A stretch of DNA of 64,000 nucleotides, taken from assembly GCA_951406725.2 (NCBI GenBank), contig OX597837.1:40796001-40860000 (forward strand), read 5' to 3'. Below are positions 1-62,251 of the stretch, one piece after another (positions within the stretch are counted from its first letter, which is position 1; each line of letters opens with the position of its first letter). Source of the stretch: Octopus vulgaris (taxonomy: Eukaryota). The position numbers were made by a program, and so were the translations under genes. The notes beneath the pieces are model-generated. The model saw only the letters and a list, made by a program, of their open reading frames with translations, did not search any database and had not been told where the DNA came from.

Positions 1-287
1 ATAAGTATATTTTAAACTGGAATAAAAAATGCATGACGGGAAGGGAAAGGTGTTGGTGTCGCTGGGGAAAACATCAATCGTTTCGTCTTAAGCGATTATC
101 GGCCCCTTAACCACAAACACGCGCCCGTTGTTAAAGCCGTGTTTTGTTAAACTAATTGCCGTTATTGTAATAATAGTAGTTATAATAGAAATACTAGTCG
201 CCATTGGAATTGTTGTTGTTGCAGCTATTGTCGTTGTTGTTGTTGTTGTTACAACACTCGGAGTTGTTTCACTGGTCGATTTGCTTA

Positions 288-382
<95 letters not shown>

Positions 383-390
383 GTTGTTGT
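288..390. repeat. (ATT)n/(GTT)n microsatellite
   Basis: Direct reading; it produces the poly-I/poly-L ORFs at 128-434. Confidence 0.95.
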
Positions 391-1204
391 TATGTGCTAT
401 TGTTGTCAAGACTTCTGACACACTCAAACAATAGACATATTAACACCGACCATCACTGCTAAATCGTAGATAATGATACCCAAGACAATTCGCTTCTTGT
501 TAAAGCTGTCGCTTCATTGTGCAAAAGAGGTGTTTAGTCAATTATATATTAAGCTACGTACACTTCCAGTCAATATCACTGCGCATTGTACCACCGTTAT
601 TACAGCCACGTGTTTCCACTTAAAAAGTCACTACTCGTTCCACACACACATATATATATATACCCTAGGTATTGTTTTTGTCTTTGTTGCTGATTGTAGT
701 TGCACTTAAAAGTGTGCAGCCAAAAGCTGTGCAATGAAATTGCTTCTAAACGGATCGGATATATGATTGTTCTTTTTTTTTAAAAAATGGTTTGCATAAT
801 TCATAAGTACAAATATTCTCCATAACTTTGTCAAATGCAACATGAGAGTAAATGATCCGTGATGAATATTTAATAAGAATCGAAACTAGTAGATATCATC
901 TTAGGTTTGATTTTTTAACTATCTTTAACTATTAAAACTCCTGTGGTTTATCCGTGGCTCATATTTTCCTCTGCGATAGCAAATATTTTTGCTACGTTTT
1001 TATTAAACAGGCTGTGAATGCATTCCAAACGTTTACCGTCTTACTCACAGTTAGGTTTTCTAAACTTTGTCAGTCTCAACGGTTAGTATATAAATTCTTA
1101 GAAAATTACTATTTTTAAATCTCGTGAGACCTAAAAATTGTAATTTAAAAATAGTAATTTAAAATAGTAATAGTCGTGAGATATTCAGCAACGGTACTTT
1201 GTAG

Positions 1205-1452
1205 TAAAGATTGTTTGCCAACATAACATGGCAGTTCTGGTTTAGGACGAATGTTGCTATAATTTAGCCCCAGGAGACATCGTCTCCAGTTGGCTATACG
1301 ACACGATCTGTGTCCTTATATTTCCTTGTTCGAAAATATAAGGACACAGATCATGTTGCATAGCCAGCTGGAGACGATGTCTCCTGGGGCTAAATTACAG
1401 CAGCAGTCGTCCTAAACTAGGACTGCCATGTTATGTTGGCAAATAATCTTTA
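1205..1452. repeat. Long inverted repeat (fold-back), about 119-bp arms and a 10-nt loop
   Basis: TAAAGATTGTTTGCCAAC...TGTGTCCTTATATTT (1205-1323) is mirrored by AAATATAAGGACACA...GTTGGCAAATAATCTTTA (1334-1452), with about 10 mismatches. Confidence 0.92.
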
Positions 1453-1549
1453 TATATAAATTCTGTTATATTTCCTATTAGATAAGAATTCAGAGATATA
1501 TTCCGTTGGCTTATTCCAAATAGATAGCCTCCAACCATATATGCTCCGT

Positions 1550-2155
1550 GGAGGCGCGTGGCTTAGTGGTTAGGGTGTTGGACTCTTGATTGTATGATTG
1601 TAGTTTCGATTCCTAGATCGGGCTACGCGTTGCGTTCTTGAGCAAAACACTTCATTTCACTTTTGTCCACTCCACTCAGCTGACACAAGTGAGTAACCTT
1701 GCGACGAACCCCCGTGTCCCGTCCGGGATGGGAATATACAGGGTGATTCAAAAGTCGCCACGCGTAGGAGCAATTTATGTTTTTACAAGAAACAGTTTAT
1801 AAGAACAGCTTTTTTTATTTATTTAACAGGTTCTATATGGTTACGATTGTTTTGAATACACATTGCAATACGTTTACCCCACTCATAGTGAACTTGTTAT
1901 AATATCACATCTGGTGATACGTGTTCAAAGGAGTTCGTGATGCGTTCCTTCAAATCATTTATGTCTTCTGTCTTTCCGCGAGACACCATGTCTTTCAAAT
2001 GCCACCAAAGATACAAATCAAGAGGGGTCAGACCAGGGGATCTAGGGGATCTTATAAACTGATTCTTATAAAAGAATACATTTTTCCTATGTATGGAGAC
2101 TTTTGAATCACCCTGTACCCGCCAGGAAAATGAGGAACCGGACTTTATGAGTTGG
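1550..2155 (+). mobile_element. tRNA-derived SINE (family C) interrupted by a Tc1-like element
   Basis: Head GGAGGCGCGTGGCTTAGTGGTTAGGG (A-box) and GTTTCGATTCC (B-box); the body resumes after 2117. Homologous to the minus-strand copy at 2380-2640. Confidence 0.8.
1739..2115 (-). mobile_element. Internally deleted Tc1/mariner (rosa/DD41D-like) element with TIRs and TA duplication
   Basis: TA|CAGGGTGATTCAAAAGTC ... GACTTTTGAATCACCCTG|TA. The minus strand encodes PRSPGLTPLDLYLWWHLKDMV...INDLKERIT, matching the WPPRSPDLTPLDFYLWGYLK motif. Confidence 0.9.
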
Positions 2156-2379
2156 TATGAAAAAAGTTAGAAGTCCAAGAGTCGGAGGGTTTCGTGCCAA
2201 CGGCATGCATGAATCTATCGGCCTTTGCGTCTCTTTATGGCTTCTGCCGACTAAACATTAATAAAATTCAATATACTCATACACTGAGCACTCTTCACAT
2301 GTTTCTTCTATTAAACACATTCATATACACGCACATATTTATGTACAAATGCAGTTGAGTGTATGTACAAAATGTAAAA

Positions 2380-2640
2380 GGTAAAGTTACCTACTCGAGT
2401 TTTTGCCCACGCATAAAGGCCGGTTTCCCGGTTTCCATGGTGTATATATTCCCAACCTGGACGGGACGCCGATCCGTCGTCGCAGAGTTATTCCTTTTTG
2501 ACGGCTGAGTAGACTGGAGCAACGTGAAATGAAGTGTTTTATTCAAGAACAAAATGCGTCGCCCTGTCCAGGAATCGAAACCGCAATTGTAGGATCACAA
2601 GTCCATCCCTACCCCTCCGAACCACTAAGGCACATGCCTT
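2380..2640 (-). mobile_element. tRNA-derived SINE (family C)
   Basis: Reverse complement of the 1550 element (GGAATCGAAACC B-box; CTGGAGCAACGTGAAATGAAGTG body). Confidence 0.8.
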
Positions 2641-3007
2641 TTTATTTATTTTTTTTTATATTCATTTTAAACTTGGAATGGCTATGAGGGGCCATGTAAG
2701 TAAAAGACGAATGAAAACGGTCCATAGTAAAAAAAAATGAAAGAGTGACTGATCGATTGAGGGTAATGTAAACCAGGATGGAACTTAAATTATTGATTTG
2801 GGACAAGGTTTATCATCAAAGAATTGAATCCATTTTTATGTCTACTGGTTCGTTACGAATATCTTCTGTTGAATGGCTGGATGAAATCATGCCTTCCATA
2901 TTTCAGGATGTTGTTTCTTTGAACAGGCAAGAATGTTACCCGCTAAACTCTTCAAAGGGGTTCTCTGACTTGGTCGCAAGTCCAATGGCTGAAGGATCTC
3001 TTTGTAT

Positions 3008-3369
3008 ATAAACGGCAAAATATCTGTGTGTGTGTGTGTCCTTTATACAAATCCAAAATTTTTCAGTTAGAGAGCTCGCACTTTCTATGGTCATTCAAAA
3101 CCGTCCAAGGGTGGTCGTGCACATCTTTACATTTCTTTACATTTCCCCAGTCACCCCGCAAAGCCATTAAAAATAAATAGAAGTGACTTTTTGTGAATTT
3201 TCTATCCAAAACCCAATCAAAATGCCCGAAACTTGATACTCCAATTGAATGCCAGTTAGCTGTATGTGATTGGTCGGAGATTTGGACAGTACTCGCGTGT
3301 ATGTGCGCACGCAGCTGTATATGCATGCACTAGCACTATGACCCGGCGTTGCTGGGTCATAGTGATAGT
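3008..3369 (-). mobile_element. Non-autonomous Helitron/Helentron-like (DINE/Lep1-like) element
   Basis: The 5' end is an ACTAGCACTATGACCCGG palindrome; the 3' end is (CA)n...TTTTGCCGTTTATATA. A homologous copy lies at 42212-42472. Confidence 0.6.
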
Positions 3370-3499
3370 AAGAGAATAAAAGAATTAAGAACTAAAGAGA
3401 CTTGAAAGAACAACATAACATAAATAAATAAAACTAGCACAAATAATTATAAAAAAAATTTGTATCAGTTTTTGGCAGTGGGTTTAGACGACCGTATTG

Positions 3500-4715
3500 A
3501 CATGATTGGTCATTTTATTTTTATCGGCCCAGAAAGGATGAACGGCGAAGTTGGCCTTGGTGTAACTTGAACTCAGAACCTAAAGTACTAAAAGAAATGT
3601 CACCAATCATTTTGACAGGAGTGCTAACGACTCTGCCAGCTCGCCACTAATCATCATTCTTTCTTAATTTGGCTGGCACAAGGAGAGCAAATTTAGATAG
3701 TGGTTAGTCGACTAGATCGATTCTAGAACTCAAGTAGTAGTTATTTATGAACATGGAAAGGATTAAAATCAAATTTGACCACGGCGGAATGTGAACTCGT
3801 AACCTAAAGAACCGGGAGTAATATCACTAAGCATTTTGTCTGCCAATTTTCTACCATCGGTTTCAACTCTTGGCAAGAGGCCAGTAATTTTAGAACTAAT
3901 CGACTACTTCAACCATGGTCCTTGACTGGTATTATATTTTATCGACCCTGAGTGATAAGGGGCAAAGTAGACCTTAACGGCTTTTGAATTGTGAACGTAA
4001 GAGCTGAAAAAAAGCCGCTAAGTATTTTGCCGGACACGCAAACTCTTCTACAAGCTCGCCCCTGTAATAATGACTAGAGATGAAATTTTGAGGGAAGGGG
4101 CCGCTAATCGATATTGTAGATCCCAGTGCGAAATTTGTTCTTATTTTACTCCTCCTTCCCCATCTTCCTCGAGAAGACAAAAGGCAATTTTGGCAGCATT
4201 TAAATTCAGAAGATAAAGATTCGGAACAAATGCTGCTAAGCATTTTGTCCGGGGCGCTAACGATTCTGCCAGCTCACTGCCTTAATACACCTTTCTAGTA
4301 TGGGCACGATACCTGAAATCTGGGAGAGGGATCAGTCGATTACCCTGATCCCAGTGTATAACTGGTACTTATTTGATCGAGCCCCCAAAATGAAAAAAAG
4401 GCAAAGCCAACCTCGCCAGAATTTGAACTCATAATGTAAAGACGACCGAAATAATACTAAACGTTTGGTTCGCTGTGTTATCGATTCGGCCAGCTCACTA
4501 CCTTAAAATGATGACTGGAAATTTTCGCACAGGGCCAGCAATTTTAGGGATTGGAGGGGTTTCCCGATTACCTAAACCGAACTTAAAATGATAAATATTA
4601 AAGTCGTCTCGGCGGGATGGGTTTGAACTCAGATCGTACAGATTCAGAAGCAAAGCCAGTTGGCAATTTTTCTCCGTCTAACGTGTAAGAGATTCTACCA
4701 ACGCACCGCCTTAAT
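3500..4715 (-). mobile_element. Cluster of degenerate tandem family B SINEs (Nin/Deu-domain-like)
   Basis: Repeated TTTATCGACCC...GATGAAAGGCAAAGTCGACC...ATTTGAACTC...TCTGCCAGCTCGCC blocks. Confidence 0.8.
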
Positions 4716-5679
4716 AAGTACAAAGAATAACGCCAAATAAAAGACAAGCAGCAACAGTCAATAAGAAGGGTTACGTAAACTTGGATAAGTTGAAATTAAT
4801 TCGTTATTCATGTTATTCCTGTCTGCTACAAGACTTGGCGAGACAATTTAGTCGTTTAGAAGGTTAAGAAGAAGAGCAAGGGAAAACAAACAGCGGCATG
4901 TTTCCTAAACTTTTATCTTCATGGATGAGCTAAAAATATTCGGAAGCAATAACTTATGTCAGCGATAGAACTTATTTCTCGTCGGCAGACATTTTCGGTT
5001 TGTGTTTTTTGTCGAACCTTTTAATGGCGAGTGTGCGTATATACATGTGAGCTCATGCGTGTACGAATATGTGCATGTACGCATTTGTATTATTGTATAT
5101 GTGTGTGTATGTGTTTGCGTGTGTCCAGAATATTCAAATATCACGAGACCAAATCAGACCAGACTAGATAAAAACTATCAAAAGAGAGGAAAGTACAACA
5201 GATTCCGTCCATTATTTGCATATAAAAATAGAGGAATAAATATATTTTTACCAACATTAATGATGAGCATAAGAATGGTTTGATGGAGAAGACGGAGAAT
5301 AAAAGCAAAAAAATAAGAGAGTCAGGGTGTCAGGATGGGTTTGCGGTAGTGTGGGCAGTGTGAGAAGACATAAGATGAGCAAGCAAACAAGCGAACGTAT
5401 TGAGGTTAGATGAGATGGTGTCTGTCGTGGAGATGAGGTGAGGAGAGGAAGAATAGGTGTTCAAGAAGGAAATGGATAAAATAGACAATGAAGATGTTTG
5501 GAATTAGGAAACAAATAGAAATAGAATATAAACATCAGAAAAAGGGACATAAAAATGGTAAATAAATAAATATATCAAAATAGTAGTAAATTGGGAAATA
5601 CAACAGGAATAAAACGATTGTTTGATTGAAGAAAAAAGTTTTATGCACACACTGGTATCAATGCGTAGGTTTATGTATG

Positions 5680-6371
5680 TATATACATATATATATGTGT
5701 GTGTGTATGTGTGTGTAATTTGTATGTGAAAACACGCGATTGCATGTGTATATAGGTACAAAAAACATATATACACATTGAGTGTAAGTGCATGTAAATA
5801 CATGTGTGCTTGTATGTGTGTGTGTGTGTTTGTTTGTTCGTATACATACATACAGACCGACAGAGAGATAAATACATACATACACACATACATACAAACA
5901 TATATACATACACATGCATACATATATACATACACACAGACACATATATATATATACATACACATATACATACACACACATACATACATACATACATACG
6001 TACATACATACATACATACATACATATGTACACACGTACATACATACATACATACATACATACATACATACATACAAACGTACATACATATACATACACA
6101 CGTACATACATACATACATACATATGCATACACATGCAGGTTGCTATTTTTAGCTTCCGGTCATTTTTTTTATTACTAAGATAAATGTTTGTGTAAATGA
6201 TAATATGTTGCTCTCTATGTATATACATAAATATGTATATATGTATGTGTGTATATACCTGCACATATGCATATATCTGTATCTGTGTATGTGTGTATGT
6301 ATGTATATAAATATTCATATATTCATACATATTTATATGTATAACTTAGTATATACATACATGCGTATGTG

Positions 6372-6450
<79 letters not shown>

Positions 6451-6552
6451 AAGCAGCTAAAACTTTTAGTTTTAGGTCATTTTTATTTCTGAGATAAATG
6501 TCTGTGTACATATGTACATATGTTGATGTATATGTACATAAATATTTACGTA

Positions 6553-9186: not shown

Positions 9187-9229
<43 letters not shown>

Positions 9230-9303
9230 CAAAAAATTCAGCATAAATTATTTGCCACCAGCGGTCTATATATATATACATATATATATACATATATACA
9301 TAT

Positions 9304-10789: not shown

Positions 10790-11360
10790 TCCGCCGCCTT
10801 TGCGTTCTGAGTTCGAATACCGCCAAGGTCAACTTCTTCTTTTCATCCTTTCGAAGTCGATGAAAATAAAATAAAATAAAGTACCAGCCATGCTCTGGGG
10901 TCATTGTAATCAACTAGCCCCCATCTCCCTCCAAAATTTCCGGTCTTCTGCTTATTGTAGAAATACAATTTCATTGTTGTTCTTCCGTCTCTAAGTTCTC
11001 AGTTCAAATTCTGCTGAGGTCGACTTTGCCGTTCATCTTTCAAAATCGATGAAACTGGTACCAGTTATACTTTGGGGTCAAAGTAATCAGCTAGTTCCAT
11101 TCATCCCCAAAATTTCAATTCTTGTGTCTATAGTAGAAAGGACTATTTCGTTGTTGTTCTTCCGTCTCTAAGTTCTCAGTTCAATTTCTGCTGAGATCGA
11201 CTTGGCCTTTCATCCTTTCAAAATCGATGAAACAGATACCAGTCATACTCTGGAGTCAATATAATCAACAAGCCCCACCTCCAATTAATTGACTGGTATT
11301 TTGCCTATAGGAGAAAGGGTTATTTTATTCTGTTCTTCCGTCTTTAAGTTCTGAAGTCAG
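10790..11360 (+). mobile_element. Tandem array of about 180-bp family B SINE fragments
   Basis: Three to four repeats of TTGTTCTTCCGTCTCTAAGTTCTCAGTTCAAATTCTGCTGAGGTCGAC... Confidence 0.8.
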
Positions 11361-17519: not shown

Positions 17520-17799
17520 AAGGAATACCAAAAATAAGACAAGAACGCAAAATATTCGGACAAACGATACAAAAAAAAATAAGGACGGGGCGTTCGGAGT
17601 TTTTCTTCAGTCGAGTTTCAGATTATCTTAGCAATTTCGGCTGGTTATGCTCGATATATATATAAGATTAATCAGCCGAAATTGCGAAGATGATCCGGTT
17701 CTTGACTGAAGATTGAAGGCTTCGAATGTCCCGTCCGTGTTTTTGTATCGTCTACTAAATGTTTCACGTTCTTGTCCCAGTTTGTACTTATATTTTTAC

Positions 17800-17800
<1 letters not shown>
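17520..17800. mobile_element. Two oppositely oriented copies of a structured, TA-inserted element (CAGCCGAAATTGC...CTGAAGA family)
   Basis: Homologous to 24923-25352 and 41910-42200; T-rich 3' tail abuts (TA)n. Confidence 0.6.
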
Positions 17801-20269: not shown

Positions 20270-20744
20270 TTTTTACCACCTAATGCAACAATCAATGCTC
20301 AAGTCTACTGTCAGCAATTAAAGCGTTTGAACGAAGCTTTGGAGAAAAAAGACCCGCTTTAGTGAATCGAAAAGAGTGATGTTTCATCAGTACAATGATC
20401 ACATCACAGAAGATCGAAGAGCTTGGTTGGGAAAATATTCCTCATCCACCTTATTCTCCTGACCTTGTTCCTTCAGACTACCATTTGTTTCGTAGTTTAC
20501 AGAATCATTTGGGGGGGCATAATTTTTGCAAGCCAAGAGGAGGTTGAAACTGACGTTTCAGAGTTCTTCGCTTTGAAACCAAAAGAGTCTTACATTGATG
20601 GGATTAAAAAGCTTGTAAATAGATGGAAGGAAGTGATAGATAATCAGGGAAAGTACATTGATGATTAAATTTCAATTAAATATAGCATTCGATCACTTGT
20701 TTTCTTTATTCAAAATTCGAACTAAACTTATGGGATGGCCTGAT
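20270..20744 (+). mobile_element. Mariner transposase 3' remnant with right TIR
   Basis: Frameshifted translation LPPNATINAQVYCQQLKRL...ELGWENIPHPPYSPDLVPSDYHLFRSLQNHL...FFALKPKESYIDGIKKLVNRWKEVIDNQGKYIDD; ends TTATGGGATGGCCTGA-TA. Confidence 0.92.
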
Positions 20745-20947: not shown

Positions 20948-21984
20948 TCAGGGTGAGTACTTGATAATTATAATGTACGTATGTACGTATTATAATGTAC
21001 GTATGTACATGTGGGTGTGTACACGTATAATGTCCGTGTATACATGCGGATATTCTGTTGTATGTATGTATATGTACGCGTGGGCGTGTGGGTGTGTGTG
21101 TGTTTATGTACATGTTTACAAGTGAGTGCGTGTGTATGCTTATAGGCTTGGAGCCGTGTATGCGCGCGTATATGCACGCGTGTATATGGGTGTATGTATC
21201 CATGATGGTATGTATGTACAAGATGACCAATTAATTCAAAGAACTAGATTAAACTCTCAACAGCTCTGATTTACAACACATTAGGTCCCCAGACGACACT
21301 GTTGATTTATTGACACCCAAAACTTCTACAACTAAATTTTATCAATCTCCTGACCACCATGTTTGGTCCGTAACCTCTATACATCCCTTATCTTTATATT
21401 TTTTTACACTTTTATCATGTTTATTCCTATTTTTAATTTTTTTACTTTTTACTTTTATTTCTATTTCTATTTTTACTTTATAACCTTATGCCTTTACATT
21501 TATTTATATTTCCTTATATTTCTTTATATTCTTTATACCCCCTTTACATCTCCTTATATCCCTCTATATCTTTATACTCTACATTTTTATATTTTTCTAT
21601 ACTTACACTTTTTATACATTTTTTATCCCTCGTCCTGAATTCTCGCCCCTCCATCTTCACGTCTATATATGTATTTATTTATTTACATTACTTCAACATC
21701 CAAATTTCCTCATTCTACATTGAGAGAAGAAAGAGATGGACGCTTCAATTCTATGCTGCTGCCGCATTATGTCGTACGCGAATGAGAGGATTTGCATCCC
21801 CAACCAAGAATTTTTGATGTAACACATGTCCTTGTGGAAGCTGTTGTGCGCGGCTGAAGAAGGCCACAGACATACATTATGCATTGTTATAAATCTGTCT
21901 AATAAAGGCCCGAAACATATGTACCGCTGAATCCTTCGAATCATGTTTTTATTTTGATCAATTTTTATATATATATATATATAT

Positions 21985-24017: not shown

Positions 24018-24120
24018 GAGGCGCAATGGCCCGGTGGTTAGGGCAGCGGATTCGCAGTCATAGGATCGCGATTTCGAATCCCAGACCGAGCGTTGTGAGT
24101 GTTATTGAGCAGAAAACACC
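24018..24120 (+). mobile_element. tRNA-derived SINE head, interrupted by a mariner fragment
   Basis: GGAGGCGCAATGGCCCGGTGGTTAGGG (A-box), TTCGAATCCC (B-box); a SINE tail resumes at about 24590-24650. Confidence 0.7.
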
Positions 24121-24526
24121 TCCGGTCAACAGAAGAGAGCCATTCATTCTTCATGACAATGCTTGACCACACGTTTCACTAATGACCCTCCAGAAATTGA
24201 GGGAATCTGGCTACGAAGTTTTACTCCACCCAGCTTATTCCCCAGACCTTTCTCCTACCGATTATCCTTTTTTCAAGCACCTTGACGGCTTCTTGCGGGA
24301 GAAGTAGTTTCAAAAATCAAACCGATGCTGGAAGTGCGTAAAAAGAGTTCATCAGCTCCAGAACTCCAGATTTTTATGATATCGGAGTATAAACAAACTT
24401 AAAAATCGACGGCAGAAATGTGTTGAATATAATGGTGCTTTAATGAGTAAAATTTCTGTATTGTTGAAATATATTGTGATGAATTTCATGTTTCAAAATT
24501 ATACTTACTATTCACTCAGCCCGATA
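24121..24526 (+). mobile_element. Mariner (cecropia/Hsmar1-like) transposase 3' remnant
   Basis: VNRREPFILHDNA*PHVSLMTLQKLRESGYEVLLHPAYSPDLSPTDYPFFKHLDGFLREK, containing HDNA and YSPDL motifs with stops. Confidence 0.9.
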
Positions 24527-24650
24527 TTTCTTAGAGCCATTCAGCGTCACTTTCTAGCATGTGGCGCTATTTATTATTGTCCCTATTATAATTGCCCCAG
24601 CATGGCCACAGCTCATGAGCTGAAACTGGAATCAATCAATCAATCAATCA

Positions 24651-24922: not shown

Positions 24923-24926
<4 letters not shown>

Positions 24927-25051
24927 AATCAGCCGAAATTACTACGATGATCCGGTTATGACTGAAGACTGAGGGTTTCGAATGTCCTGTCCGTGTTTAT
25001 TGTGTCGTCTTCTAAGAGTTATACGTTCTTGTCCATGTTGTATTTTTCTAC

Positions 25052-25111
<60 letters not shown>

Positions 25112-25352
25112 AACTGGGACAAGAACGCATAGCATTTAGAAGACAATACAAAAAGCACGGACGGGACATTCGAAGCCTTCAATCTTCAGTCAGGAACCGG
25201 ATCATCCCCGCATTTTCGGCTGTTTAATCTTGAGATAGCTCGAATCTGGCCAGCCCCAAGGAAAAACTCAGCTAAGCGCATTAGATTCCTTGGAAAAAAG
25301 CTTCGAATGTATACGAAACAAGGATGGAAAACGGACGATGTTACACGAATAT
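24923..25352. mobile_element. Tail-to-tail inverted pair of structured elements around one (TA)n tract
   Basis: 24923-25045 is the reverse complement of 25108-25230; both 3' tails point into the TA run at 25058-25109. Confidence 0.75.
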
Positions 25353-32519: not shown

Positions 32520-32559
32520 ATATATGTCTCTGTGTGTGTATGTATATTTATATATGAGA

Positions 32560-32715
32560 ACCTTATACTTCTTTAGTTTTACGTAATTGATTATATTTAA
32601 TCAAAATGATATTTCTCTTCAATATTGATAACATAATTCCATCTATTTAACAAATTCTTGATCTCTCGGGCATAGAATTCTTCAGATTATTTCGAAGCAA
32701 AGAATTGCAATGATC
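32560..32715 (-). mobile_element. Mariner transposase extreme C-terminal remnant
   Basis: Minus strand QFFASK*SEEFYAREIKNLLNRWNYVINIEEKYHFD*. Confidence 0.7.
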
Positions 32716-32933
32716 CGAAGCGAAACTGGCCAAACTATAGTTTGTTTTAATAGTTTTCATTCCCACAGACAGAACGAATATTTCTTGCCTCTTCCAATAG
32801 TGAAGAACGGCCTTTTGAAGTTATACAGCATGCAGTGTTTGATATGGATCGGACCGAAATTCATATTCAGTCACGATGGTATGAAGTAGTCTGCAAAGAA
32901 AGAGAAAAACATAAGCAACAAGAATAACTCCGG

Positions 32934-33026
32934 TAATTTGGTACGAGCGTTTCGTACTACATCATTTTAATAAATGTTGTAAGTATTACAACAGTTTTAA
33001 AATGCTGAGTACTCATCAGCCAATTA
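32934..33026 (-). ncRNA. Type I hammerhead ribozyme, canonical core, long stem II
   Basis: TAATTGG-CTGATGA-GTACT...AGTAC-GAAA-CGCTCG-TA-CCAAATTA; all core nucleotides and three stems present; GUA cleavage site between 32942 and 32941. Confidence 0.85.
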
Positions 33027-33260
33027 TAGAGCTTTTCCATTAATAAAAAAAATGTCATATCAAGTGACAATATTATAGAGAAGGTAGATACATAGACAAA
33101 GATGTGGATTTAAATTTTAAGAACATTTGAGGTAGTGGAGCTCATCAACTGACTGACTAAGATTCAGTTGTTCCAAACTACTTTAAGGTTCTGAGAATGA
33201 AGAACAAGTGAGATGAGGCAATAAAGATTTTCTAATTATAGAAATGGGGTAAAGGGGATG

Positions 33261-33300
<40 letters not shown>

Positions 33301-34108: not shown

Positions 34109-34886
34109 ATTTGTGTGTGTGTGTATGTGTGTGTGTGTGTATGTGTGTGTGTGTGTATGTGTGTGTGTGTGCGTGTATTAAAATAACATCTTTGGCGACT
34201 TAACTTAAAATTCCTTAACGACAACGTAACCTTCAAATGACTAAGGTATCTTCGGCCTGTTGAGTGGTTAGCAGAGTACCCTACTTCATCAGAGGATCTG
34301 CTATCTAGGAAACGAATGTAGGTTGGCTTTTACCTGCTCCACTTTCTCAATTTAGATTTTTTTTTTTTTGGCATTTATAGCAAGCCCAGTTGCTCACTGT
34401 GATCTGTAAAAAATTTCTTTTCTGTTTATCCAACTTCTATACGGGAAAAACCTTCGAGGCCGATAAATTATTTATGTTCTTGAACGTTGTTTTTTGTTCT
34501 TACCACGGACTGTTCGAAGCTTACAAATTTCCTACACTTAAATCCTCCGATCTTCTAAGTATATATATATATGTTTTGTTTTTTCCTTCTCATAAGGGCC
34601 GGTTTCCCGGTTTCCTTGGCCTGACGCCGGTGAACTCCAAGATGCAGGAGGAGAGAGTGAGAGAAAGTTGTGGCGAAAGAGTTAGCAGAAGTTCGCCATT
34701 ACCTTCTGCCGGAGCTGCGTGGAGCTTAGGTGTTTCGCTCATAAACACACACACATCGCCCGGTCTGAGATACGAACCCTCGAGTCCGTTGCTCCAACCA
34801 TTAGGCCTCCACCCTCCGACCTCGTGTGTACCGTTGGCGATTTTTTTCCCTCTGTCTTCCCTTCTCTGGATCTTTCCTTCTCCTAT

Positions 34887-38272: not shown

Positions 38273-38330
<58 letters not shown>

Positions 38331-38373
38331 GTATTCTGAAAGCTAAAGGAGAAATATATACATTTATCCTTTT

Positions 38374-38480
38374 CAACTTTGTACCCTGCAAGGTTTCAAC
38401 AATTTTTACGCAATCGAACTTAATTAAATTAAATTAAATCCGTTTACGATTGGCTTGTTTCATCAGCAATCCGCTGGTTG
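38374..38480 (-). ncRNA. Type I hammerhead ribozyme, canonical core
   Basis: CAAC-CAGCGGA-TTG-CTGATGA-AACAA...TTGTT-GAAA-CCT-TGCA-GGG-TA-CAA-A-GTTG; stem III has a palindromic TGCA loop; GUA cleavage site between 38382 and 38381. Confidence 0.85.
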
Positions 38481-38512
38481 CAGAAAATTTTCTTGAATTT
38501 TTCTATATATTG

Positions 38513-38582
<70 letters not shown>

Positions 38583-39111
38583 TACGACAGGCTTCTTTCA
38601 GTTTGATCGGCCCGAGGCTATAGTAGAAGACACTTGCCCAAGGTGCCACGAAGTGGAAATGAAATCGGAACCATGTGGTTTATAAGCAAGCTACTTACCA
38701 CACAGCCACTCCTGTGGCTATACTATCTATATTTCATGTCTGTCTATCATTCTATCTTTCAACACATACATACATACATGCATGCATACATACGTACATA
38801 ATACTAGATACATACATATATACATACACACATATGCACATGCACACACACACACATGCATATATACATGTATGTATATATATGTATATATATAAAAAAA
38901 AAAATTCGTGCATTCATATGTAAGAACATGCATACATTATTCAGGTAAGCCAGAAGCCAGGAAAAGGCGTAGCACCTTCTTCAGATACATCAAAGGGAAC
39001 ACCGACCGCCAAAGCTGACAGATATTTCACCTGTGTTTATATACAACAACACACCTGACAAATAGTTAACTCTTTCCATAAAACTTTTATCGCTTTAATA
39101 AAAGAAATCGC

Positions 39112-40275: not shown

Positions 40276-41487
40276 TTCAGTAGTTTTATTTTTATAGCGT
40301 ATTTCACTTCACTATCGAGCGCAGCTCTGTGTGCCTTGGGTATGTGCTGTGATTTGTTGTGATGCTCTGATCGTTACTATATTGAAAGTGTTCCGCGTAG
40401 GATGTGTGCAGTACCTAGTAGTGCAATTGTCTGTATGTTATATGTGATTGAAAGTCCTGGTGTTTTGGTTATGTATTTGTCTGAATATTTTTTTATCATG
40501 CCTAATGTACCAACTATGATAAGAATTGTTTCTGTTTTTAGATTCCACATTCTACTTACCTCTATTTCCAGGTCTTTGTATTTTGAAAGTTTCTCCATTT
40601 CTTTTAAAGACACGTTATCATCTGCTGGTATCGATGCATCAATTAGAAAGCATAATTTTCTTCATGACCTCTGACAACTACATCTGGTGTGTTGGTCTTA
40701 ATTTATCTATCTGTATTGGCATATCCCAGAGTATGGTTGCTTTCTCGTTTTCTGTTACATTTTCTGGTTTGTGCCTATACCATCTTTTTTCTGTTGTTAT
40801 TCCATAATGTTGGCATAGCTTCCAGTGTATGTAAGTCCCAACTCTGTCATGTCTGTGAATATATTCCTTCTTAGTCAGGACTGGGCAGCCAGAGATAATA
40901 TGATTTATTGTTTCTTGACCATCTCCACATATTCTGCAGTTACTTGTTATATTTCTTTTCATTATATGTTTTTGGTAATTTCTGGTGGGGAAGCTTTGGT
41001 CTTGTGCTGCAATTAAAAATCCCTCTGTCTCTGCTTTGAGTCCTGAGCTTCTCAACCACTGCTGGGACTTTAGTCCAGTATTTGCCATGAAGGGGCTTTT
41101 CTTGCCATCATTTTATCATGGTCCGTTGCTGTTCGAGTTTTAGTTTTGATTTCATTTGTTTTATAGCTTTTGTTGTTTTCTTCTTCTTCATATTTGTTAG
41201 GTGGTATGATTTCTTGTTTGTTTTTGTCAGCTTCCTTAAATACTGAGATCAGTTTTTTGTTTTGCTCGCGTTTTGCCGCTATTTGTATCAGTTTTTCTTC
41301 CTTCTTAAGTAGGTATTTTTGCAGTCCTATGGTGGTTAATTTATAATAGTTTTCCAGCTGTATTAGGCCTCTACCACCTTCTATACGTTGTATATATGGC
41401 CTTTCTATGTCAGATTCTAGGTGATGCATCCAAGACCCTGTCATTATTTTTCTTGTTTTCCTATCTATTTTGGTTAGTTCATTTAGA
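40276..41487 (-). mobile_element. 5'-truncated R4/Dong-like non-LTR retrotransposon (RLE endonuclease)
   Basis: GGRGL (RT C-terminus), ETEGFLIAAQDQ, CCHC knuckle CRICGDGQETINHIISGC, RHD, ILWD, KEMEKLSKYKDL...IIVGTLG; frameshifted; the 3' end runs into (TAA)n. Confidence 0.92.
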
Positions 41488-41909: not shown

Positions 41910-42200
41910 ATGTAACATCGTCTGTTTTTCCGTCCTTGTTTTCGTATTACATTCGATGCTTTTTTTCCAAGGAATCTAATGCTCTTAGCTTAGTTTTTCC
42001 TTGGAGCTGGACAGATCGGAGCAATCTCAAGATTAATCAGCCGAAATTGCGAGGATGATCCGGTTCTTGACTGAAGATAAAAGGTCTCGAATGACCCGTC
42101 CTTGTTTTTTTTGTATCATCTATCTGGATGTTTTGTAGTCCCTTTTTGCAGCACCTAGTTGTCCAGATGTTTTACGTTCTTGTCTCATTTTGTATTATAT
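41910..42200 (+). mobile_element. Longest copy of the structured CAGCCGAAATTGC...CTGAAGA element
   Basis: Homologous to 25108-25352 (minus); internal hairpin CCAAGGAA...TTCCTTGG. Confidence 0.65.
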
Positions 42201-61574: not shown

Positions 61575-61575
<1 letters not shown>

Positions 61576-61666
61576 TCAAAATAAGCAACAAGAATGACTC
61601 CGGTAATTTGGTACGATCGTTTCGTACTACATCATTTTATTAAATGTTGTAAGTATTACAACAGTT
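61575..61666 (-). mobile_element. 5'-truncated copy of the 32.9-kb hammerhead element (3' half of the ribozyme only)
   Basis: Near-identical to 32910-32996; stem III is the perfect palindrome ACGATCGT; flanked by (TA)n on both sides. Confidence 0.8.
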
Positions 61667-62251
61667 AATATATATATAGCGACTTCGTTGCTATCTTCAC
61701 CGAGACACGACGGCTTATCCTGTCCCTCTCATAAGCTGTCTCCTTAATGCGTTCAAAATAATTTTCCCATCCTCTTGGCTTAACAACCCTCATCGTTTGT
61801 TTTTACTGTGTTATTTTCTTTGTCCTGTCTTTTACTGTTTTTATTTGTATTGCTTTTACTGTCCTGTTCTTGTTACCACTTTTACCCCTCTGCAAAAAAA
61901 TCCCAAATTTTATTTAATTTGCTTTGCGGGAAGGATTGTTTCAACGAAGTCGCGTCTTGTCCTTACCTTCGACACGCGGAGTAGACGAAACAGGGACAAC
62001 TGAAGAAGGGGTATATTCATTGTGTTGTATGTCTTGTGCTCTGTTTTTTCGTTGTTTGAAAAAAAGTTCATTTCCATGTTTTCTATATGTTTTCGTTTCT
62101 CATTGTGTTCAACGATTTTTTGATGTCTCGTACCCATATATGCATGTATATATACATATAGATGTAGGTATGTACATATATGTATGTATATATGCATATA
62201 TATATATATTATTTATATTATTATATATAATTATATATAATTATATATAAT

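What the first reader, a model, noticed from the sequence alone, without database searches (positions are those of the whole stretch)
38374..38480. Second intact canonical hammerhead, unrelated in sequence, between two (TA)n runs
Seen: CUGAUGA, stem II AACAA/TTGTT extended by CAATCG/CGATTG, a 4-bp stem III capped by palindromic TGCA, a GUA site, and stem I with an internal loop (TTG/CAA then CAAC/GTTG). It has a different primary sequence from the 32.9-kb ribozyme but the same long-stem-II design. It is the best candidate for monomeric activity.
Basis: partly seen in the sequence, partly recalled or inferred. Interest (0 to 1): 0.7.

Follow-up and report, generated by a model that had tools for sequence, protein, structure and literature searches.

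The report
Truncated hammerhead ribozyme in octopus-like repeat
This is a real self-cutting RNA motif (hammerhead ribozyme) from a many-copy mobile repeat in an octopus-like genome, but this particular copy is a broken-off piece fused to unrelated DNA and is probably a poor cutter, so it is mostly an ordinary retroelement leftover with an unusually long arm.

Summary
The type I hammerhead is really there: minus strand, full core, GUA site, cut at 38382|38381. No shuffle of 150 matched the pattern. It belongs to a multi-copy repeat held by runs of four organism labels, and a variant keeps stem III by a compensatory change.

Stem II extends through CGUAA/UUGCG, not CAAUCG/CGAUUG. The distal stem I (CAAC/GUUG) is accidental: family contigs leave the window at 38469, and 38471-38503 belongs to another repeat. 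In the family, stem I is a continuous 5-8 bp helix. This copy keeps 3 bp, and the foreign DNA pairs with the core, so the active fold lies 5-9 kcal/mol above the minimum. The palindromic stem III suits a dimer. 'Best monomer candidate' is not supported.

Best reading: the 5'-truncated 3' end of a Penelope-like retroelement, or a derivative, left at a (TA)n run. No RT or endonuclease gene could be linked. Three unrelated hammerheads in this window have 51-62-nt stem II arms that Rfam misses. Open oddity: the 32.9-kb hammerhead sits 78 nt before a mariner transposase start and shares a splice-acceptor-like tail with this family.

The parts
38460..38466 (-). CUGAUGA, hammerhead core positions 3-9
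38467..38469 (-). Remaining 3 nt (UUG) of the stem I 5' strand; 5' end of the ribozyme-family piece
   Evidence: family contigs stop matching at 38468/38469 (tables 7 and 8)
38398..38459 (-). 62-nt stem II: 5 bp (38459-55/38402-398), 6x6 internal loop, 5 bp (38448-44/38413-09), 1x1 loop, 11 bp (38442-32/38425-15), 6-nt loop
   Evidence: variants at 38411 and 38416 keep this register
38394..38397 (-). GAAA, core positions 12-15.1
38383..38394 (-). Stem III, 4 bp including A15.1-U16.1, with palindromic UGCA loop; fully self-complementary 12-mer able to form a dimer helix
   Evidence: one variant haplotype changes U-G to A-U and C-G to U-G
38381..38382 (-). Predicted cleavage site GUA|C (A17 = 38382)
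   Evidence: position by hammerhead rules; cleavage not shown
38374..38381 (-). Stem I 3' strand (8 nt); pairs over 5-8 bp with the family's own upstream letters, over 3 bp in this copy
   Evidence: table 7 (loose ends behind 38469), read by eye
38331..38380 (-). 3' tail of the family piece: hairpin 38380-38339 that competes with stem I, pyrimidine tract + CAG ending at 38336; other copies continue at least 20 nt further
38471..38503 (-). Piece of a second, unrelated repeat fused to the ribozyme; a solo relative lies at 9224-9266
   Evidence: different continuation before 38471 in X4 and X5; 0 of 500 shuffles align as well
38276..38330 (.). (TA)n run flush with the 3' end of the piece
38504..38584 (.). 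(TA)n run (pure from 38517); 38504-38516 may be a degraded part of the second repeat's flank
38585..38722 (-). Head part of an abundant dispersed repeat (SINE label recalled, not tested) whose internal microsatellite hosts the insert
   Evidence: many copies in the window

Best explanation
A type I hammerhead from the 3' terminal repeat (pLTR) of a young, multi-copy Penelope-like retroelement family, or a non-coding derivative. This locus holds only a 137-139-bp 5'-truncated piece (38469-38331), joined on its 5' side to a fragment of another repeat and on its 3' side to (TA)n. SHOWN: core and helices; multi-copy status; covariation in stem III; truncation at 38469; the fused foreign piece. INFERRED (hammerhead chemistry, PLE literature): in the parent RNA the ribozyme folds during transcription with a 5-8-bp stem I and cuts at GUA|C. 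It can do so alone through the 4-bp stem III, or more stably as a double hammerhead in which two palindromic stem III strands form a 12-bp helix, as tandem pLTRs allow. The cut sets the ends of the element RNA, and the downstream hairpin then takes over the stem I 3' strand and hinders religation. The element's GIY-YIG endonuclease nicks (TA)n, and reverse transcription starts near the RNA's 3' end and stops early, here inside stem I. This copy should therefore cut slowly or not at all in cis.
For: 20 of 24 listed runs (8 studies, four organism labels) hold the stretch or part of it. In the 4 runs laid, 118 contigs matched, with summed depth of 60-6,500 over the 3' half against 0-29 at the TA junction, and at least three haplotypes (depth is no copy number). 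Stem III variant: U-G to A-U (both sides) and C-G to U-G on one haplotype; none of the 7 listed substitutions falls in the core. Contigs with 0 or 1 difference over 38429-38469 leave the window at 38469. In X4 the listed pieces reproduce the depth of bin 38465-38471 exactly (74.7) with no contig crossing 38470. Two other long-stem-II hammerheads in the window end 38 and 42 nt after the cut, flush with (TA)n; one is 5'-truncated inside stem II; this copy ends after 51 nt. Hydra-clade PLEs carry the hammerhead 30-153 nt (median 70; 12 of 23 within 75) from the 3' end and prefer (TA)n; octopus has such families (PMC8557442 supplement). Palindromic stem III and dispersed solo copies from truncated PLEs are described in PMC4209133. 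The window looks octopod: a mariner remnant is 87% identical to an Octopus bimaculoides entry.
Against: No RT or GIY-YIG gene was found in 137 of 233 open stretches scanned, and no genome is held, so the parent is not seen. No pLTR tandem lies in the window. The stem II of 62 nt and the stem III of 12 nt are longer than in the Hydra-clade table (spacer about 10-26 nt by eye) or the 7-8 bp of PMC4209133. The family continues at least 20 nt past this copy's TA junction with no TA run in view, so the natural 3' end is unknown. The 3' tail resembles that of the 32.9-kb hammerhead, which leads into a mariner ORF. 86 of 118 pieces and 23 of 46 loose ends were not shown, so a low-depth bridge across 38470 in X1 or X2 is not excluded. 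Folding energies ignore Mg2+ and tertiary contacts.
Confidence: 0.55

Rival explanations
1. Solo monomer remnant of a tandem non-LTR retrozyme: a short non-coding unit whose hammerheads cut multimeric RNA into monomers that circularise and are moved by PLE enzymes.
For: Near-canonical stem I (5-8 bp) and a palindrome-capped stem III fit canonical metazoan type I hammerheads; mussels have about 5000 in 350-390-bp repeats (PMC7229834). Solo monomers are common (bioRxiv 10.64898/2026.07.22.740005). No coding sequence is attached.
Against: Single copy in 64 kb. No joint that goes back within the 198 bp laid (table 5), which tests only units under about 200 bp. Upstream letters differ between haplotypes. 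The same preprint derives such units from PLE pLTRs, so this rival is close kin to the main reading.
Confidence: 0.2
2. The hammerhead belongs to the 5' untranslated region of a mariner-type DNA transposon, upstream of a splice acceptor and the transposase start. It would cut read-through transcripts from host promoters.
For: The 32.9-kb hammerhead, with an intact stem I, cuts 78 nt before an ATG that starts collinear N- and C-terminal mariner transposase pieces. Both families have a pyrimidine tract + CAG 46-51 nt after the cut, followed by ACTAC-like letters (0 of 500 shuffles, composition-biased). Mariner ends also sit at TA runs here.
Against: No terminal inverted repeat pair around the 32.55-33.26-kb unit (396 of 500 shuffles score as well). 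The TIR-like piece at 38471-38503 proved not to be attached to the ribozyme in the family. A palindromic stem III makes most sense with two ribozymes per transcript. A PLE piece inserted into a mariner leader explains 32.9 kb as well. The 21.9-kb hammerhead has no such tail.
Confidence: 0.15
3. One reading: an intact ribozyme with an internally looped stem I that cleaves well as a monomer at this locus.
For: All core bases are present and stem III is 4 bp, longer than the 1-2 bp of dimer-dependent forms. In the 107-nt fragment CAAC/GUUG forms with probability 0.64. Tertiary contacts and Mg2+ are not modelled.
Against: Proximal stem I probability is 0.01 or less in all fragments, and the distal helix drops to 0.02 once 5 more nt are added. 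The CAAC is foreign DNA. Pair 10.1-11.1 is A-U.
Confidence: 0.08
4. Chance match to the hammerhead pattern in AT-rich DNA.
For: No Rfam hammerhead model matches.
Against: 0 of 150 shuffles; compensatory stem III variant; relatives keep the core and differ in the flanks.
Confidence: 0.02

Closest known systems
Type I hammerheads of metazoan Penelope-like elements (Cervera and de la Pena 2014, PMC4209133; Hydra clade incl. Hydra-1_Obim, Craig et al. 2021, PMC8557442)
   Same: Type I topology, palindromic stem III region, dispersed solo copies, position a few tens of nt from a (TA)n junction.
   Different: Stem II is 62 nt with three helices (theirs about 10-26 nt). Stem III is a 4-bp hairpin with a tetraloop rather than minimal. 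Family stem I is 5-8 bp. No exact motif match to that paper's Naiad, Chlamys or Hydra consensus files (line breaks can hide matches), and the 3' ends of Naiad_Obim and Naiad_Ovul look unrelated.
Non-LTR retrozymes of mussel, coral and axolotl (Cervera and de la Pena 2020, PMC7229834)
   Same: Canonical type I core, non-coding context, palindromic tetraloop on stem III as in axolotl.
   Different: No tandem unit seen; far longer stem II; no RNA evidence here.
Naiad 'HHR_half_core' cases and deviating long-stem hammerheads PLE-X1_sMoe and PLE-X1_sTam (PMC8557442 supplement)
   Same: Core halves far apart (35-50 nt in Naiads), which made descriptor searches miss them.
   Different: Here all three stems close properly; no sequence link to those elements was found.

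Membership tests
Hammerhead ribozyme, type I | CUGANGA, GAAA and UH core in type I order | tested here: met
Hammerhead ribozyme, type I | Three helices around the core, kept across homologues | tested here: met
   Stems II and III supported by variants; stem I 5-8 bp in the family but 3 bp in this copy
Hammerhead ribozyme, type I | Match to an Rfam hammerhead model | tested here: not met
   0 matches at gathering score in the window; none of 16 weak matches in 38335-38500 is a hammerhead
Hammerhead ribozyme, type I | Stem I - stem II tertiary contact | not tested
   A 6x6 internal loop after 5 bp of stem II is a candidate; no model was built
Hammerhead ribozyme, type I | Self-cleavage at the UH site | not testable with these tools
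   Only contigs were available; they cannot show RNA ends
Penelope-like element (pLTR) | Linked RT + GIY-YIG ORF | tested here: inconclusive
   None among 137 of 233 open stretches scanned with Pfam; no genome held
Penelope-like element (pLTR) | Direct terminal repeats / partial tandem | tested here: inconclusive
   Single truncated copy in the window; expected for 5'-truncated inserts
Penelope-like element (pLTR) | Hammerhead near the 3' end | tested here: inconclusive
   51 nt from cut to TA run fits the Hydra range 30-153, but the family runs on at least 20 nt and its true end was not seen
Penelope-like element (pLTR) | Insertion in (TA)n | tested here: met
   weak, since 34 gaps in the window are bounded by TA runs
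Penelope-like element (pLTR) | Palindromic stem III region | tested here: met
   12-nt self-complementary strand, kept in the variant
Penelope-like element (pLTR) | Minimal form: short stem II, little or no stem III | tested here: not met
   62-nt stem II and 4-bp stem III versus the table
Non-LTR retrozyme | Head-to-tail repeats of about 150-450 bp, each with a hammerhead | tested here: inconclusive
   No tandem in the window; no joint in contigs over 198 bp; longer units untested
Non-LTR retrozyme | Abundant circular monomer RNA | not testable with these tools
   no raw RNA reads available
Tc1/mariner DNA transposon | Terminal inverted repeats and TA duplication around the ribozyme-bearing unit | tested here: not met
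   The TIR-like piece is foreign to the family; no TIR pair at 32.55-33.26 kb
Tc1/mariner DNA transposon | Transposase ORF downstream | tested here: inconclusive
   Present after the 32.9-kb hammerhead; unknown for this family, whose known sequence ends 20 nt past 38333

The most novel reading that the evidence does not exclude
Octopus carries several families of long-stem-II hammerheads, and at least some (this one and the 32.9-kb one) are built into the leader of mariner DNA transposons, just upstream of a splice acceptor and the transposase start. That would be a self-cleaving ribozyme used by a cut-and-paste element to sever or gate read-through transcripts. The library searches for such a link listed no paper whose title or abstract opening describes it.
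Probability: 0.15. Interest if true: 0.72.

Novelty: new variant of a known kind. Interest (0 to 1): 0.32.

Why it matters
As read, the locus is a decayed retroelement piece and matters little by itself. The family is mildly interesting. Three unrelated hammerheads in one 64-kb window have 51-62-nt stem II arms and escape Rfam. Published descriptors with short stem II spacers would also miss them, so ribozyme counts in cephalopods, and 'no hammerhead' calls for some PLE clades, may be too low. If the mariner link held, it would extend self-cleaving ribozymes from retroelements to DNA transposons. Practical point: anyone testing activity should use a copy with the family's own stem I, not this one.

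Tried and rejected
Own genome: none held.

Rfam: nothing at gathering score. The E-value scan gave 712 matches; the 150 shown were all microRNA models, and the ten alignments shown are microsatellite sequence.

Pattern scans for relatives: 52 metagenome and 35 viral loci are unrelated; 1 of 87 has CUGANGA upstream, at an unrelated spacing. 24 genome loci and 1 viral locus from a gapped pattern gave 0 of 27 matches with all three stems.

RNA: no RNA holder listed; run X4 is only guessed to be RNA.

Idea that 38471-38503 is the left TIR of a mariner carrying this ribozyme: dropped, because family contigs do not cross 38470.

Idea that the parent is Naiad_Obim, Naiad_Ovul or Hydra-1_Obim: no motif match. 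The motif search for a PLE protein end at 21.2 kb was uninformative.

Protein searches: the 32.6-kb transposase C-terminus found no scored relative; PDB sequence searches gave nothing useful.

Window searches for the family's outer flanks: none for two motifs, chance level for one, and one unexplained 13-nt match.

Earlier scan notes: nothing on this genome or sequence; the eight notes concern other systems.

The paper on dimeric PLE hammerheads (PMC5785218) is not held.

Full report
1. Observation. On the minus strand the window reads UUG (38469-67), CUGAUGA (38466-60), a 62-nt stem II (38459-38398), GAAA (38397-94), stem III with a UGCA loop (38394-83), A17 at 38382, then CAA. It was the only hit of a strict type I descriptor in the window. 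A descriptor as strict as the observed stems was met in 0 of 150 dinucleotide shuffles, a looser one in 4 of 150. The region folds with z = -3.4. Rfam has no match at gathering score, and none of 16 weak matches in the segment is a hammerhead. TA runs flank it, but 34 non-repeat gaps in the window are bounded that way.

2. It is a repeat family. No genome is held. Of 24 runs listed, 20 hold the stretch or part of it, from 8 studies and four organism labels. I laid 4 of the 24, one per label: 118 contigs matched, 32 shown; 23 of 46 loose ends shown. Summed depth over the 3' half is 60-6,500 against 0-29 at the TA junction. This is not a copy number, but it fits a multi-copy repeat. Seven substitutions and three indels are listed. 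One haplotype changes stem III from U-G to A-U and from C-G to U-G, and keeps a palindromic loop. No listed change falls in the core, but the table leaves out changes near contig ends, so that is weak. A more abundant relative shares 38420-38469 and then reads GUC-GAAA, which would give the usual C at 11.1. The window copy differs from most laid depth at 38370 and lacks single letters in homopolymers (38487, and near 38343), through decay or assembly error. The genome looks octopod: a mariner remnant at 20.5 kb is 87% identical to an Octopus bimaculoides entry.

3. Two corrections to the structure. The variant at 38411 turns U-G into U-A in the first register and breaks a C-G pair in the second. 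Stem I: in all four runs contigs stop matching at 38468/38469 and go on with other letters, including pieces with 0 or 1 difference from the window. Contigs covering 38471-38503 go on along a different path in X4 and X5. In X4 the listed pieces give the observed depth of the junction bin exactly, with no bridge (74.7). In X5 only two contigs cover the upstream piece, and the depths likewise leave no room for a bridge. X1 and X2 could hide a low-depth one. A solo relative of the upstream piece sits between TA runs at 9224-9266. The insert is therefore a chimera. The family's own upstream letters begin AG in all four loose-end consensuses and AGTCG in two (+ strand; agreement 0.69-0.88). Read by eye against 38378-38374, that gives 5 continuous pairs in all and 8 in the second type.

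4. Activity. With ViennaRNA the hammerhead fold of this copy lies 2.2 kcal/mol above the MFE in the bare core and 5.3-8.8 above with flanks. Proximal stem I has probability 0.01 or less. The foreign CAGC pairs with GCUG of the core, upstream UGCAA pairs across stem III, and a 3' hairpin (38380-38339) takes the stem I 3' strand. The 12-nt stem III strand gives -1.7 kcal/mol as a hairpin and -18.9 as a self-duplex. These models ignore Mg2+ and tertiary contacts, so some cleavage is possible. The 32.9-kb ribozyme keeps a long stem I, and its second copy has the perfect palindrome ACGAUCGU.

5. What carried it. Two more long-stem-II hammerheads lie in the window: a 5'-truncated copy of the 32.9-kb family at 61.6 kb, ending about 38 nt after the cut at a TA run, and a third family at 21.85-21.93 kb on the + strand, behind a T-rich tract and 42 nt before a TA run (its isolated fold is not significant). 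This copy ends 51 nt after the cut. In 23 of the 26 Hydra-clade rows of PMC8557442 File S2 (left out: an antisense duplicate, a 5' copy and Penelope-2_NV; several consensuses are marked incomplete) the cut lies 30-153 nt from the 3' end. Almost all of these families prefer (TA)n, and octopus has such families. PMC4209133 describes palindromic stem III regions and many solo motifs from truncated PLEs. That is my best reading, at about 0.55. Against it: no RT or endonuclease in 137 of 233 open stretches scanned, no motif match to the published octopus consensuses, longer stems than the published PLE forms, and a family 3' end that was not reached.

6. Rivals. A retrozyme monomer fits the near-canonical stems (PMC7229834) and is close kin to the PLE reading (bioRxiv 10.64898/2026.07.22.740005), but no tandem was seen. 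The mariner case rests on the neighbour. The 32.9-kb hammerhead cuts 78 nt before an ATG that opens collinear N- and C-terminal mariner transposase pieces (HTH_48 E = 0.011; 46-59% identity to full-length mariner transposases). Both families have a pyrimidine tract + CAG 46-51 nt after the cut (0 of 500 shuffles, though composition-biased). No TIR pair was found, and a PLE piece landing in a mariner leader would look the same. Searches for a hammerhead-mariner link, for octopus mariner ends and for cephalopod hammerheads listed nothing that describes these families; I saw only listings for most hits, and most subscription journals are outside the library.

7. Mechanism. Shown: anatomy, family, covariation, truncation and fusion. 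Inferred: co-transcriptional cleavage at GUA|C in intact copies, alone or as a double hammerhead; ends of the element RNA set by the cut; target-primed insertion at (TA)n with early stop; loss of most activity in this copy. Hammerhead chemistry and the SINE label for the flanking repeat are recalled.

8. Papers seen. PMC8557442: abstract, passages, sections 11, 15 and 20, supplement part 2 and supplement searches. PMC4209133: parts 1-2 of 4. PMC7229834: passages and section 14. PMC7761336 and PMC6765202: passages. bioRxiv 10.64898/2026.07.22.740005: parts 1-3 of 5, supplements not seen.

9. Verdict. A real hammerhead of a known kind of host element, in a long-stem-II variant that Rfam misses. 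The copy flagged is damaged and is not the one to assay. Interest 0.32; the mariner-borne reading has probability about 0.15 and would deserve about 0.7.

Noticed in passing
window 21850-21965 (+): Third type I hammerhead: CUGAAGA 21854, 51-nt stem II, GAAA 21912, perfect palindrome ACAUAUGU, A17 21923, 4-bp stem I; 42 nt before a TA run and behind a long T-rich tract; looks like a truncated PLE 3' end.
   Followed up: partly
window 32553-33262 (-): Hammerhead (33019-32942) 78 nt upstream of the ATG of an internally deleted mariner transposase (32864-32600), with a splice-acceptor-like CAG between; no TIR pair found.
   Followed up: partly
window 61575-61668 (-): Second copy of the 32.9-kb family, 95% identical, 5'-truncated inside stem II, palindromic stem III, flush with a TA run.
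   Followed up: partly
window 9224-9266 (+): 43-bp solo piece between TA runs, related to 38471-38503; starts GGGTAG right after the TA run and may be a transposon end (resemblance recalled, not tested).
   Followed up: partly
window 20270-20743 (+) and 24101-24530 (+): C-terminal mariner transposase remnants; the first ends in a typical-looking right end at a TA run.
   Followed up: partly
window 17664-17800, 24924-25057, 25110-25231, 42029-42135: Repeat family with CUGAAGA; three of the four copies have it 80-97 nt before a TA run, with T-rich 3' ends. No standard hammerhead fold found; possibly another PLE end with a variant ribozyme.
   Followed up: no
window 34187-34200 (+): 13-nt match to the family's upstream letters, directly after a (TG)n run, not followed by a core; unexplained.
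   Followed up: partly
window 40681-41112 (-): zf-RVT match (E = 1.6e-5), probably a LINE remnant.
   Followed up: no
window 10881-11352: 177-bp tandem repeat, 2.2-2.7 copies, related to a dispersed repeat family.
   Followed up: no
run X5, loose end behind 38366: One contig shares the 3' tail up to 38366 and then runs on for 254 unlike letters: possibly a version of the tail without the ribozyme.
   Followed up: no
L104/L109 (Shewanella morhuae contig): Two matches 2.2 kb apart to the gapped hammerhead pattern, one with 8 stem I pairs and 4 stem II pairs but only one stem III pair beyond 15.1-16.1; not examined.
   Followed up: no
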